Program-made: the position numbers and the translations under genes | Notes under the pieces: model-generated | The model's database searches: none | What the model was told of the DNA's origin: nothing | The model's input: the letters and a program-made list of their open reading frames with translations, nothing else | NCBI GenBank assembly: GCA_963847705.1 | Contig: CAWKBC010000017.1 | Coordinates: 192,001-256,000, forward strand | DNA: 64,000 nt | Direction: 5' to 3' | Source: an uncultured Pseudomonadota bacterium | GTDB taxonomy: Bacteria; Myxococcota_A; Polyangia; Fen-1088 | In this document: positions 28,530 to 32,394 of the stretch, piece by piece | Position numbering within the stretch: position 1 is the stretch's first letter | Layout of the letters: every line of letters starts with the position of its first letter

Positions 28530-28721
28530 GGAACCCTCTCGGCCAAAGGGGCTCATGGGAGTCTGTTCAAGACTGGGTGTAGGTTCAGTATATGTACCGA
28601 AACGGTTCCTGCAATGCCGGTGACCGTCGGACAGCTCTGGAGGGGGGCTTACGCGTGTTAATAGTTTCCTTGTATGTCGACGTTCATCAAGTGATGACAT
28701 CTTCTTTAAGGAGCTAAAGCG

Positions 28722-29801
28722 ATGTACACGTACCCCTTCACCCCCGCAGAAGAATGGGAAGATCGCGGAGTCCAGTTTGTCAATTTCGGCGTTCCCCAGG
28801 CCACGGTCGACACCCTGAAGAGCAAAATCACCGATATGTGGATCGAGGGCGCCGGCGGCTGGGTTTACGAGTGGTCCGCCATCGCGGCCGACTACGCGGC
28901 CAAGAGCGATCACACGATGGCGTCCCTCGTCTACGGCTTTGCGAAGTTCCCCACCGTCTGCGACCAGCAGCGAGTCGTCGCGCTGCAGAAACAGGTCGAC
29001 GAGTTCATCAAAGCAGCACCGACGTTTCCTGTCCACTTCGAGCGCCGGACGATGACGTTGCCCTACGCCGGCTCGACCGTGGACTTCCCGGTTCACATCT
29101 ATTCCGCCGACGCGAATTATGCCGAACGACCCGTGATGCTCATGAGTGGCGGGGTTGACACGTTCAAGATCGAGTTTCACCAGTCGTACATCGCGGCTGT
29201 GCAGCAGCTCGGCGCAACGGTCGTCGCCTTCGATATGCCCGGCACGGCCGAGATGCGCCATGTTCCGCTCACCGGCGCCGCCGACGAAGTTGTCCTTGGC
29301 CTCGTCAAAGAAGCCCGCAAGCTCGGCAACGGCATCGTGGGCTATCATGCGTTCTCGTTCGGCGGCAATTTCTCGGCCCTCGTTGGGCTGACCGGAGTGG
29401 TCGATATGTGTGTCGATAACAGTGGGCCAGTCAACGGTGCATTCACGGCCGAACATATTTCGAAAGTTCCATTCGGCATGGGCGATATTGTCGGCAACGC
29501 AATGGGCTTCACGTACAAGCCTTCCGTCGAAGAACTGGTCCAGGTCGCACAAACGCTTTCGCGAGCGAAGCTCTTCGATCTGAAAAAGAACTCCCCGATG
29601 TACGTCATCAACGGTGCCGACGACTATTTTGTGCCCGTCGAAGACTCGACGATCTTTCAAAGCCTGCCGAACACCGAAGTCCACATCATCCCTGGAACAG
29701 GACACTGCTGTATCTCGAAGCTCAGCGAAATCTACCCGATGATGTACGGTTGGTTGCGATCGCAGCTCGATGCTAAGACGGCGGAAGAAAAGAGCGCGTG
29801 A
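28722..29801 (+). CDS. Alpha/beta hydrolase (FrsA-like esterase)
   Basis: TAAGGAG RBS; GGVDTFK, FDMPGT, nucleophile FSFGG, NGADD, GH; visibly lower GC than flanks. Confidence 0.85.
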   Translation: MYTYPFTPAEEWEDRGVQFVNFGVPQATVDTLKSKITDMWIEGAGGWVYEWSAIAADYAAKSDHTMASLVYGFAKFPTVCDQQRVVALQKQVDEFIKAAPTFPVHFERRTMTLPYAGSTVDFPVHIYSADANYAERPVMLMSGGVDTFKIEFHQSYIAAVQQLGATVVAFDMPGTAEMRHVPLTGAADEVVLGLVKEARKLGNGIVGYHAFSFGGNFSALVGLTGVVDMCVDNSGPVNGAFTAEHISKVPFGMGDIVGNAMGFTYKPSVEELVQVAQTLSRAKLFDLKKNSPMYVINGADDYFVPVEDSTIFQSLPNTEVHIIPGTGHCCISKLSEIYPMMYGWLRSQLDAKTAEEKSA

Positions 29802-29885
29802 CGAGTCAGCTTATCGGCCCGGCGCACCGTGCGAGGGGATAAGCAGAACAAGCTGAGCCTGCCCCGGTTCAGTTCCGTGGCGAGA

Positions 29886-29913
29886 AGTTAACAGAATATT
29901 TCTTATCGGACAT
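29886..29913 (-). other. dif-like XerC/XerD recombination site
   Basis: Minus strand ATGTCCGATAA-GAAATA-TTCTGTTAACT, 11-6-11 layout; XerD arm 9/11 to TTATGTTAAAT; XerC arm ends in ATAA. Confidence 0.75.
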
Positions 29914-29918
29914 TCGTC

Positions 29919-31396
29919 TATGGGCGCAAAAGCGATAGGGTCCGCTTTCTGCAAAGCTGAAATGTCCGCGTGGGGTCGGCCCGAGCCTGCACGGTTCCGG
30001 GTGGAACGCGATCTTGAACCCGAGCGCTCGGCCGGAGTGGCCGGTTATCGTGGCCTTCGGAGATGGCTAACAACTGGGCGTCCGCGGAGATCACCGGACC
30101 CGATTCGCCGCCACGAAGGCCGCCCTCTCCGTCGAGGATCCCCGGTTACCACAGAAGCTTCGGCTAGCGCTCCGCGGGGAACATCACCGAGATCGGCGGG
30201 AGCCGCAGGCGGCCCCTGCTCCGCTGCCGCGCGCCCGCCGGTGCGCCGGCCGCGCCGTCGGTGCCCCCGCAGTCGAGGGACGTGCAGACGCCCGCCGCGC
30301 AGACGGCGCCGGGAAAGCAACTGTCGTAGGCGGTGCAGGGAGATCCCGTGTTGACCAACGAGGCGGTGCACGTTGCCGCGCCCGCGTCGGTCGTCGGCCC
30401 GCAGGCACCGCCGTCTGGAATCGTGATGGCCACGCACGACGAGGTCGTCGCGTCGCAAAGAGCGCCGGCTTGCGTCGGGTCGCAATAGACGATCATGGTG
30501 GAGTCACAAGGTTGTCCGACAGTCGGAAGCTTGGTGCAGACGTGGTTGGTCCCGGCGCAGTAGCCGTCGATGGGGCAGGCCTCCGTGTCCGCACAGGCCG
30601 CGCCCATGACGACCGGCGCCGTGCAGACGGTCGTGCTCGCGCTGGTCGGAGTCATCGCGCAGACCAAACCATCGGCGCAGTCGGTTCCGAGGACACTGTC
30701 GTTGCTACAAGGCTGACCGCTGGATACGGCCGCCACACAGGTTCCGCACTGCCCGAGGGTCGGCATGGAACATCGCCCGCTCGCGCATTGCCAGCTGGTG
30801 CTGCAGGGGCCACCGATCGATACGGTGCCTCCGTGCGCAAGGCAAGCGGCAGGGGCCGTGCTCCCTCCCAGAAACGCCGTGCAACTCTGCGCGGCGATCG
30901 CATTTCCACATTGCTCGGCCAGTGAAGCGGTCAGACCCGTGTGGGGCGCCGTGAGCTCCTCGTTGCATGAGGCGACGTTGTACGACTTGCAGGCGGCGAC
31001 ATCTGCGAATCCGAGGAGCGCCAGAGCCCCGGGCTCGCACGCCTCGAGCCGATCGCACTCCGCTCCGAAGGCGGCGCAACCGGATCCGGCGCCGCTGTCG
31101 GGCTTGTTCGAGTTGGAGCCGCCACACGCGGTGGCCACAAACCCCATGAAGCCAATGAACGCCAATCGCCTCTTCCGGATCACGCGCATGGCGACCATCG
31201 TATGTCACCGCCGCTGGCCGTCAAAGAAGCTCAGGAAGCCAGGCCCGCCACGCGGATGCCCTACCGAGGGAAGGGGGCTACTCGATCGATGTGGCCTGCG
31301 AGAAGCACCGCACTTCGCCGGATTTGGGGACAGCCGCCCCGTCCAGCGGACAGTTTCGCTTTGCAGCAGACCGGACATCTCAGCTTTGCGTTGACA
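29919..31396. mobile_element. Non-autonomous element with IS1202-family-like ends carrying one passenger gene
   Basis: Left end TATGGGCGCAAAAGCGATAGGGTCC..GCAAAGCTGAAATGTCC; right end (reverse complement) TGTCAACGCAAAGCTGAGATGTCC..GCAAAGCGAAACTGTCC; exact TCGTC repeats at 29914-29918 and 31397-31401; no transposase ORF inside. Confidence 0.78.
30164..31189 (-). CDS. Cys-rich lipoprotein (cargo of the element)
   Basis: Lipobox ATAC; repeated GxxC...C..G.C modules. Confidence 0.8.
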   Translation of the reverse strand: MRVIRKRRLAFIGFMGFVATACGGSNSNKPDSGAGSGCAAFGAECDRLEACEPGALALLGFADVAACKSYNVASCNEELTAPHTGLTASLAEQCGNAIAAQSCTAFLGGSTAPAACLAHGGTVSIGGPCSTSWQCASGRCSMPTLGQCGTCVAAVSSGQPCSNDSVLGTDCADGLVCAMTPTSASTTVCTAPVVMGAACADTEACPIDGYCAGTNHVCTKLPTVGQPCDSTMIVYCDPTQAGALCDATTSSCVAITIPDGGACGPTTDAGAATCTASLVNTGSPCTAYDSCFPGAVCAAGVCTSLDCGGTDGAAGAPAGARQRSRGRLRLPPISVMFPAER

Positions 31397-31425
31397 TCGT
31401 CTCTGTCGTTCCGCTTTCGCTCGAG

Positions 31426-32171
31426 CTACAGCAGCGATCCGCCATCCACGGGAATCGTCGCGCCGGTGATCCACCGCGCAGCGTCGGAAGCGAGGAATGC
31501 CACGACGTCACCGACGTCGTCCGGCTGACCAATGCGCTTGAGGGCCTGAATCCCCAGCGCGAACGCGCGCCCCTGCTCCGTCTTGGTGAAGTTCGACATG
31601 TCCGTTTCGATAATTCCCGGAGCCACCGCGTTGATGCGGATTCCGCGCTCTCCCAGCGCAGGGGTGAGGCTTCGAACCAGCGTGTCGACAGCTCCCTTGG
31701 TCGAGGCGTACGCCGAGATGTTCCCCACCGGGCGCCGCACGCCCAGAGACGACAGCAACACAACGCTGGCACCGTCGTTCAGATGCGGCAGCAATTGCTG
31801 GACGAGGAAATACGGTGCCCGGACGTTGATGGCAAACAGGCGATCGAAGTCCTCCACGGTCAGCTCGTTGATTTTGGCTGACTTCGATACGCCGGCGTTG
31901 GCGACGAGAATATCGAGAGGACCACCGACGAGGTCCCGCGCTCTGACAGCAAGCTGGTGCGCACCATCGGGCGCCGAGAGATCCCCCCCAACGTGAGGGC
32001 GGATCCGCCGGCTGCGTCGATCTCCCGGCGCACGGCCTCGGCTTCCGGAGCGGAGCTCGAGTAGTGCACGATGACGCGTGCGCCGGCAGCCGCCAGCGCC
32101 TTGGCGCTCGCACGGCCGATTCCGCGCGAGGCTCCAGTCACAAGCGCGATCTTCTGTTTGGGTTCGGGCAT
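31426..32171 (-). pseudogene. Short-chain dehydrogenase/reductase with one frameshift
   Basis: ALVTGASRGIG in one frame; DILVANAG, YASTK and NAVAPG in another; frame switch at the C7 run 31983-31989, possibly a sequencing error. Confidence 0.8.
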
Positions 32172-32394
32172 GACTCTCTCCTGGGTCTTCGATGACAGGG
32201 TCTTGAATCTCGATCGCCGTGCATGACTCCATGAACACCGACAGCAGTCCCGTTGCCTCGACACGATAAGACGAGCATCGGGGCGCTGTAAGGCCCGATC
32301 GCGCGAATTCCAGGTGCGGATCCGGTGCCAGTCCTGCGGCGGTGCCCCGTCTGGATCACAATTTCGAACGGCGTTAGTATCGCCGGACCTCGCA

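What the first reader, a model, noticed from the sequence alone, without database searches (positions are those of the whole stretch)
29914..31401. Transposase-less, IS1202-ended cargo cassette inserted right next to a dif-like Xer site
Seen in sequence: the 28-bp dif-like site (29886-29913) is followed by TCGTC, then a 1478-bp segment, then TCGTC again (31397-31401). Both ends carry two copies of a ~17-bp GCAAAG-x5-TGTCC motif in inverted orientation; the outer left copy is degenerate. The termini read TAT and TGT. The only sizeable ORF inside is a Cys-rich lipoprotein, and no DDE transposase is visible. Established: one subgroup of IS1202-family IS has TGT ends with internal repeats, makes ~5-bp duplications and inserts a few bp from the XerC arm of xrs/pdif sites. 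Inference: this is a non-autonomous gene-delivery cassette mobilised in trans to Xer sites. I do not know of such a cassette described in myxobacteria.
Basis: partly seen in the sequence, partly recalled or inferred. Interest (0 to 1): 0.85.

Follow-up and report, generated by a model that had tools for sequence, protein, structure and literature searches.

The report
Cargo transposon relic parked at dif
A 1.5-kb piece of mobile DNA lies exactly five bases from the site where this likely myxobacterium separates its copied chromosomes; it carries a predicted lipoprotein gene but no jumping enzyme, and is most likely the stranded remains of a known kind of site-seeking, gene-carrying insertion sequence whose intact relatives carry other passenger genes.

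Summary
Real, and of a known kind with a small twist. The dif site, TCGTC duplication, 1478-bp span and doubled end repeats (GCAAAG-N6-TGTCC, not N5) are confirmed; the two ends rank first and second of 90,118 candidate starts in the genome. The ends belong to a TAT-left-ended lineage of IS1202-family elements. Intact members (G003, G021, metagenome locus L311) encode an ISNCY/IS1202 transposase that groups with the dif-targeting ISAba32 subgroup and carry unrelated passengers; L311 is complete, 5 bp from an Xer site, with a 5-bp duplication. 17 of 73 family dif sites have such an end 5-6 bp from the XerC arm, none on the XerD side. The window copy is a transposase-less, cargo-bearing (MIC-like) derivative. 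Mobilisation in trans is unsupported: single copy, no transposase found in this 85%-complete genome, damaged outer left repeat, and decay in place is common at these sites. No clean empty site was found; one metagenome contig joins dif to the same right flank without the cargo. This scan earlier reported dif-targeted IS1202 relics, including in a myxobacterium, on other DNA. No IS1202-family MIC appeared in eight paper searches.

The parts
29886..29913 (-). XerCD dif site (XerD arm 29886-29896, spacer 29897-29902, XerC arm 29903-29913); most likely the chromosomal dif
   Evidence: Sequence; unique in genome; same site in 22 of 25 other genus genomes; KOPS-type polarity flips beside it; close to the dif sequences listed for Anaeromyxobacter and Myxococcus in PMC2731167
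29914..29918 (+). Left copy of the 5-bp target duplication TCGTC, abutting the XerC arm
29919..29987 (+). Left end (IRL) of the element, TAT terminus; homology to intact elements runs 69 bp, into the leader of their transposase gene, then stops
   Evidence: 84% over 69 bp to G003, 81% to G021; aligned to L311
29926..29943 (+). Outer left repeat (inferred transposase-binding site), damaged: one extra base and GGTCC for TGTCC
   Evidence: alignment with L311; 5.1 bits against 18.2 for G003
29951..29967 (+). Inner left repeat, intact
   Evidence: 24.7 bits, best single score in the genome
29988..30073 (.). Unassigned 86 bp where relatives have the transposase gene
   Evidence: no match to transposase, to hmgA-like genes (score within shuffles) or to any fetched locus
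30074..30167 (+). Degenerate 3' tip of a homogentisate-dioxygenase-like gene, its stop codon overlapping the cargo's stop codon; likely a relic of the donor locus
   Evidence: 78-87% over 62-77 bp to the gene ends of 5 of 5 relatives, about 81% over 71 bp to the genome's own copy on C1; family label HgmA_N above cut-off, TIGR01015 below cut-off
30164..31198 (-). Passenger gene: 344-aa Cys-rich predicted lipoprotein, intact, read inward from the right end
   Evidence: homologues in 10 of 25 other genus genomes, 0 of 63 other family genomes; Atlas neighbours are Myxococcota Cys-rich proteins, Dickkopf_N on 38-57% of members (a lead only); GC3 0.82 against 0.93 for the host hmgA-like gene
31347..31396 (-). 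Right end (IRR), TGT terminus, two intact repeats (31373-31389, 31348-31364)
   Evidence: 84-95% to right ends of G003, G021, G017; 21.6 and 18.8 bits
31397..31401 (+). Right copy of the 5-bp target duplication TCGTC

Best explanation
The 1478-bp segment has the ends, 5-bp duplication and position of an IS1202-family, ISAba32-subgroup element and carries a passenger gene but no transposase; it most likely inserted beside dif as a complete transporter IS and then lost its transposase gene where it sits, leaving a probably immobile relic. Shown: the ends match a TAT-left-ended lineage whose intact members are built left end - transposase - convergent passenger - right end and sit 5 bp from Xer sites. 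Taken from the papers: this subgroup inserts left end first 5-6 bp from the XerC arm; how the site is recognised (possibly transposase contact with bound XerC) is untested there too. Inferred: the ancestor picked up a stretch of chromosome holding the lipoprotein gene and the tail of its convergent neighbour (the hmgA-like remnant); after insertion a deletion removed the transposase from base 70 of the left end onward and the outer left repeat decayed, while the passenger stayed intact.
For: L311: complete 2201-bp element, TAT left end, 507-aa transposase, 163-aa lipoprotein passenger, CCGGC duplication, 5 bp from an Xer-type site. G003: TAT end 5 bp from dif plus 509-aa transposase, NF033594 487 bits against cut-off 250. 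Tree: the 3 TAT transposases fall inside the clade of ISKpn21, ISRel10, ISLad2 and an Acinetobacter element (100/99), apart from 15-17-bp-duplication elements. 17 of 73 family dif sites have an end at 5-6 bp on the XerC side, 0 of 73 at any offset 0-30 on the XerD side. Loss in place is documented next door: G017 keeps the duplication, right end and passengers but its left end is cut after 6-7 bases by an IS481-like element and it has no IS1202 transposase; G014 has a 404-bp internal-deletion copy with its duplication; many dif sites keep only a stub. Window copy is single, has no partner transposase found and a damaged outer repeat. ISKpn21 has the same transposase-plus-convergent-passenger layout.
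Against: An intact duplication and three good repeats fit arrival as a transposase-less cassette equally well; the order of events cannot be read from one genome. The genome is 84.7% complete and repeats are often unassembled, so a helper may be missing from the assembly. No ancestor with this cargo plus a transposase was found. No clean empty site was found: the one contig that joins dif to the same right flank has 115 unread bases between. The G003 left and right ends are on different contigs and their flanks give a 6-bp, not 5-bp, match; the G021 element has no duplication.
Confidence: 0.62

Rival explanations
1. One reading: the transposase was lost elsewhere and the cassette was then delivered to dif in trans by a helper of the same lineage, as MIC231 is by IS231.
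For: Both ends and the duplication are kept; three of four repeats score well; autonomous helpers with 81-88% identical ends exist in the genus; the cut falls cleanly just inside the left end; trans-transposition is reported for MIC231 (PMC6199540, passages).
Against: One copy only; no helper found in G000; outer left repeat shifted by one base and mutated; no transposase-less cargo element was seen twice among the loci fetched; the cargo's 90% cluster holds only this protein and an identical 163-aa fragment of unknown context; none of 8 runs laid carries the cargo at 85-90% likeness or better over long pieces.
Confidence: 0.28
2. A chimera made in place: successive insertions at the same 5 bp (which repeat the same duplication) or a lone right end plus a later element were fused by deletion, so left end, cargo and right end never moved as one unit.
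For: Tandem insertions at one xrs separated by the same 5 bp are reported (10.1101/2022.12.17.520857); G095 has left end - transposase - right end - 1.4 kb with a PIN-domain gene pair - second right end with the same flank; dif flanks in the genus vary widely in added DNA.
Against: No internal end or third TCGTC-bounded remnant was found inside; the passenger reads inward from the right end as in L311, G003, G021 and ISKpn21; both ends belong to one narrow lineage.
Confidence: 0.09
3. Chance: ordinary intergenic sequence with accidental repeats.
For: TCGTC alone occurs about 3 times per kb in the window.
Against: Ends rank 1 and 2 of 90,118; 69-bp homology to transposase-bearing elements; position matches 15 of 73 dif sites at exactly 5 bp.
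Confidence: 0.01

Closest known systems
ISKpn21 and the other transporter IS (ISKpn65, ISKpn63, ISRel10) of the IS1202 family, ISAba32/ISAjo2 subgroup (10.1101/2022.12.17.520857; PMC10132070)
   Same: Left end 5 bp from the XerC arm, 5-bp duplication, two repeats per end, C at position 9, chromosomal dif as target, an unrelated passenger; ISKpn21's passenger converges on the transposase as in L311, G003 and G021.
   Different: No transposase; left end starts TAT where the papers give TGT for this subgroup; host is a likely myxobacterium where the main text names mainly gamma-, beta- and alphaproteobacteria; passengers differ from copy to copy within one narrow lineage.
Partial ISAba32 copies at xrs sites (10.1101/2022.12.17.520857)
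   Same: Defective copies left 5-6 bp from the XerC arm.
   Different: Those keep the left end only; this one keeps both ends, the duplication and an intact passenger.
Mobile insertion cassettes, MIC231 of Bacillus cereus group (IS231, IS4 family; described in PMC6199540)
   Same: Two IS ends without transposase around a coding sequence, 0.7-3 kb; a conserved stretch next to the left end shared with the parent IS; different passengers in related elements.
   Different: Different IS family and target; trans-mobilisation is reported for MIC231 and is not shown here.
pdif / dif modules of Acinetobacter
   Same: Gene cargo associated with XerCD sites.
   Different: Those are bounded by two Xer sites and would move by XerCD; here there is one dif and the cargo is bounded by IS ends.

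Membership tests
IS1202 family, ISAba32/ISAjo2 subgroup | Single DDE transposase of 400-500 aa with HTH, extra DD and Q at E+7 | tested here: not met
   None in the element or genome. Met by the relatives with the same ends (NF033594 487 bits; motifs aligned, Q seven residues after E). So the window object is a derivative, not a member IS.
IS1202 family, ISAba32/ISAjo2 subgroup | Ends begin 5'-TGT | tested here: inconclusive
   Right end TGT; left end TAT, shared with L311, G003, G021, L314 and the stubs in G017 and G067; L311 shows a TAT end with a 5-bp duplication at an Xer-type site.
IS1202 family, ISAba32/ISAjo2 subgroup | Second internal copy of the end repeat 7-10 bp inside each terminal repeat; C at position 9 of the left end | tested here: met
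   Two repeats per end, 7-8 bp apart; position 9 is C; criteria.
IS1202 family, ISAba32/ISAjo2 subgroup | 5-6-bp target duplication | tested here: met
   TCGTC both sides; inferred as a duplication, no clean empty site seen.
IS1202 family, ISAba32/ISAjo2 subgroup | Left (transposase-proximal) end 5-6 bp from the XerC arm of an xrs/dif site | tested here: met
   The dif-side end is the homologue of the transposase-proximal end of G003 and L311; 17 of 73 against 0 of 73.
IS1202 family, ISAba32/ISAjo2 subgroup | Cognate transposase groups with the short-duplication subgroup | tested here: met
   Tree of 23 rows: TAT group inside the clade of the 6 short-duplication references, 100/99; one long-duplication row (L089) was mistranslated and is disregarded; no IS1202-subgroup (27-28 bp) row was included.
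Mobile insertion cassette (MIC) | Two IS-type ends, no transposase gene, one or more coding sequences between, about 0.7-3 kb | tested here: met
   1478 bp, one intact 344-aa ORF; definition from PMC6199540.
Mobile insertion cassette (MIC) | Mobilised in trans by the cognate transposase | not testable with these tools
   Indirect signs are negative: single copy, no helper found, damaged outer left repeat.
Transporter IS (tIS) | Transposase plus passenger between one pair of ends | tested here: not met
   Not met by the window element; met by L311 and G021, and probably G003.
dif module / IMEX (XerCD-mobilised) | Cargo flanked by two Xer sites | tested here: not met
   Only one site within 5 arm mismatches in the genome.
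Chromosomal dif | Single 28-bp XerC/XerD site at the replication terminus | tested here: met
   Unique, conserved in the genus, KOPS-type polarity flips; GC skew does not confirm; XerCD binding not testable.

The most novel reading that the evidence does not exclude
A myxobacterial lineage of TAT-ended IS1202 elements works as a gene shuttle: it keeps swapping secreted and lipoprotein genes into the slot inside its right end, delivers them to dif and other Xer sites, and sheds its transposase to give cassettes that helpers move in trans, making the XerC flank of dif a depot for surface-protein genes.
Probability: 0.2. Interest if true: 0.55.

Novelty: new variant of a known kind. Interest (0 to 1): 0.3.

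Why it matters
Modestly. It shows the Xer-targeting IS1202 subgroup at work in a further phylum, a lineage with a non-canonical TAT left end, and what its passenger-carrying members leave behind: genes parked at the chromosome terminus after the transposase is gone. If a two-ended, transposase-less unit can be moved in trans, about 120 bp of ends plus one 500-aa enzyme would be a minimal system to test how these transposases find Xer sites, which both defining papers leave open, and a possible tool for site-specific insertion at dif, which the Siguier preprint already suggests. As it stands the element is probably a fossil.

Tried and rejected
1) Idea that targeting comes from likeness between the XerC arm and the end repeat (both contain ATGTCC): rejected, because long-duplication elements that do not sit at dif carry the same repeat; the likeness probably explains right ends found fused to the XerC arm in G002 and G084. 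2) Helper transposase in G000: none by tblastn, protein search, own profile with positive control or NF033594. 3) Empty site: none of 22 other genus dif loci carries the cargo, the SDR gene or the esterase within the stretch fetched (322 to 11,203 bp on the XerC side), so only synteny-level absence; a metagenome scan for dif plus TAT end found 0. 4) Runs: none holds over 0.20 of the words; the share comes mostly from the esterase. 5) Donor locus: the cargo is not next to the hmgA-like gene in 5 of 5 relatives, and no hmgA-like match lies in the 14 cargo-homologue loci. 6) A conserved cargo slot or shared sequence inside the right end: likeness between elements stops after about 50 bp. 7) One search used a wrong spacing and missed known positives; repeated (3 of 401 class genomes, all in the family). 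Searches had faulty patterns, redone. 8) Viral contigs: 0 for the TAT left end; 13 loci with a 49%-identical transposase, not examined further. 10) No structure or complex prediction was run; it would not bear on the question.

Full report
Observation. Each end holds two repeats of GCAAAG-N6-TGTCC; the spacer is 6, not 5 (the N5 pattern has no match in the genome). A weight matrix made from 14 repeats of other elements' right ends, not from the window, scores the two ends 40.4 and 29.8 bits; the next best of 90,118 T[GA]T starts in the 6.1-Mb genome scores 12.8. The ends are real.

The site is most likely the chromosomal dif. It is the only such site within 5 arm mismatches, a match with at most one mismatch is in 22 of 25 other genomes of the genus and 72 of 88 of the family, and it resembles the dif sequences tabulated for Anaeromyxobacter and Myxococcus (PMC2731167, passages). 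The GGGNAGGG motif (KOPS, recalled) reads 37 forward/8 reverse left of the site and 2/14 right of it on contig C17. Against: cumulative GC skew does not turn over in the 76 kb that remain.

Whose ends. A DNA search of 40 relatives and follow-up found the left end, TAT included, in G003 (84% over 69 bp) 5 bp from the XerC arm of dif and followed by a 509-aa ORF that scores 487 bits on NF033594, the ISNCY transposase model, cut-off 250. G021 has a 3362-bp element with the same ends, a transposase whose frame shifts late, and a 532-aa lipoprotein-like passenger; it has no duplication, and its left flank resembles that of L311. A metagenome scan for the lineage's right end gave 11 loci; L311 is a complete 2201-bp element with TAT left end, 507-aa transposase (91.5% to G003), a 163-aa lipoprotein passenger, a CCGGC duplication and an Xer-type site 5 bp from the left end. 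So TAT is an inherited feature of an active lineage, not decay. L314 is a second transposase-deleted derivative (53 residues of transposase left, no duplication). The lineage is rare: 3 of 401 class genomes match the left-end pattern, one of them a TGT end.

Subgroup. In a tree of 23 transposases the three TAT enzymes form one group (100/100) inside the clade that holds ISKpn21, ISRel10, ISLad2, an Acinetobacter element and two other references (100/99), apart from elements with 15-17-bp duplications; one long-duplication row (L089) was read in the wrong frame and is disregarded, and the 27-28-bp subgroup was not sampled. The two defining papers (10.1101/2022.12.17.520857, whole main text; PMC10132070, passages and section 19) give for this subgroup: left end 5-6 bp from the XerC arm, 5-6-bp duplication, a second internal repeat, C at position 9, chromosomal dif among the targets, passengers in ISKpn21, ISKpn65, ISKpn63 and ISRel10, and partial copies that keep only the left end. 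ISKpn21's passenger converges on the transposase, as in L311, G003 and G021; the window's ORF has the same orientation.

Targeting in this family. I took one dif-type site from each of 73 genomes (72 of the 73 with a hit, G078 left out for an atypical spacer, G060 added; where a genome had several sites I chose the one with the usual spacer). An end scored at offset 5 in 15 and at offset 6 in 2, window included; three other C-side offsets had one hit each; no offset 0-30 on the XerD side had any. One site (G087) is cut by its contig end and counts as a miss. Kin are not independent, so this is a description, not a test. Most of these ends are stubs or broken copies. G014 has a 404-bp internal-deletion copy with its duplication; G017 has a 4456-bp relic with duplication, right end and passengers, whose left end is cut after 6-7 bases by an IS481-like element (210 bits, cut-off 224) and which has no IS1202 transposase. 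That one cannot have moved in its present form, so loss in place happens.

What is inside. Homology to intact elements stops at base 69 of the left end. Then come 86 unassigned bases, then about 94 bases like the 3' tip of a homogentisate-dioxygenase-like gene with single-base insertions (78-87% to 5 of 5 relatives' genes; family label), whose stop codon overlaps the stop of the cargo. The cargo is an intact 344-aa, 33-Cys predicted lipoprotein with no Pfam or NCBIfam hit, GC3 0.82 against 0.93 for the host's hmgA-like gene. Homologues are in 10 of 25 other genus genomes and 0 of 63 other family genomes, best 59-62% identical. The four best loci have no dif site and no end pair; in G018 and G001 the gene lies upstream of an ABC-F ATPase gene. 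I infer capture of a chromosomal stretch with the neighbour's tail; no relative with that neighbourhood was found.

Is it mobilised in trans? Nothing here shows it. The ends are single-copy. No family transposase was found in G000 by four methods, though the assembly is 84.7% complete. Against L311 the outer left repeat has one extra base and GGTCC for TGTCC (5.1 against 18.2 bits for G003), which would likely spoil transposase placement at the cut (inference from the Tn7-like end layout in PMC10132070). The cargo's 90% cluster holds only this protein and an identical 163-aa fragment of unknown context. None of the 8 of 24 listed runs that I laid carries the cargo in long pieces.

Empty site. 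None of 22 other genus dif loci carries the cargo, the SDR gene or the esterase in the stretch fetched; in G009 and G021 the conserved glycosyltransferase gene starts about 50 bp from the XerC arm, against 2.76 kb here. One 370-nt contig of run X15 matches 29886-29929 (3 differences in 44), has 115 other bases, then matches 31405-31488 (2 in 84): a near relative with the same right flank, a left-end start and no cargo.

Mechanism, best reading (0.62): a complete transporter IS inserted left end first 5 bp from the XerC arm, duplicating TCGTC (shown for the lineage by L311; recognition mechanism unknown, XerC contact proposed in the papers), then lost its transposase in place and began to decay, keeping the passenger. 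Rivals: delivery in trans of a ready-made cassette (0.28), a chimera of successive insertions (0.09), chance (0.01).

Known and new. The object fits the structural definition of a mobile insertion cassette (PMC6199540, passages; MIC231 primary papers seen only as reference entries). Eight searches gave no paper on an IS1202-family MIC or MITE or on this family in myxobacteria; the one paper with both IS1202 and MITE concerns an IS1182-type MITE (PMC11578231, passages); PMC3129680 gave only an abbreviation. Earlier notes of this scan already report dif-targeted IS1202 relics, one in a myxobacterium and one with cargo; none overlaps this DNA. Verdict: new variant of a known kind, interest 0.3.

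Noticed in passing
L089, L094, L097, L110, L111, L119, L124, L125, L127, L132, L141, L145, L150, L155, L157, L160, L161, L118 (GTDB loci, mostly Acidobacteriota): IS1202-family elements with 15-17-bp duplications often have a TTGAC-like hexamer directly beyond the left-end duplication, many with a TAnnAT-like box further on: 18 of 32 against 2 of 32 on the other side. Looks like insertion against sigma-70 promoters; PMC10132070 found no conserved target for long-duplication members; an earlier scan note says the same as this.
   Followed up: partly
window 28645-29838: FrsA-like esterase gene on the XerD side of dif, low in G+C, is 99% identical to contigs of other soil runs with other flanks and is absent from 22 other genus dif loci: a second recent acquisition at dif, with no ends found.
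   Followed up: partly
window 31402-32290: The SDR gene segment right of the element is also extra relative to G001, G009 and G021; no element ends were found around it.
   Followed up: partly
L050 (G017) and L363 (G067), 5 bp from dif: In two genera a TAT left end is interrupted after base 7 by the same kind of sequence, an IS481-like element in G017: possible targeting of one IS end by another.
   Followed up: no
L051 (G002), L351 (G084): Only a right end remains, fused to or just beyond the XerC arm, in G002 through the shared ATGTCC core: likely microhomology deletion that restores a near-empty dif.
   Followed up: partly
G070 (15 sites), G072 (9), G067 (5): Many dif-like sites with varied spacers in single genomes of this family, reminiscent of pdif modules; not examined.
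   Followed up: no
L258 6831-10041 (G095): Left end - transposase - right end - PIN-domain gene pair - second right end with the same flank: a possible intermediate in passenger capture. G095 has 12 transposase matches.
   Followed up: partly
L311, L308, L306, L048 right flanks: Four TAT-lineage elements share a short CTTGTTC motif 6-8 bp beyond the right end, suggesting a repeated secondary Xer-type target.
   Followed up: no
L350 (G083): The XerC arm of dif is duplicated in tandem, with an IS1202 end after the second copy.
   Followed up: no
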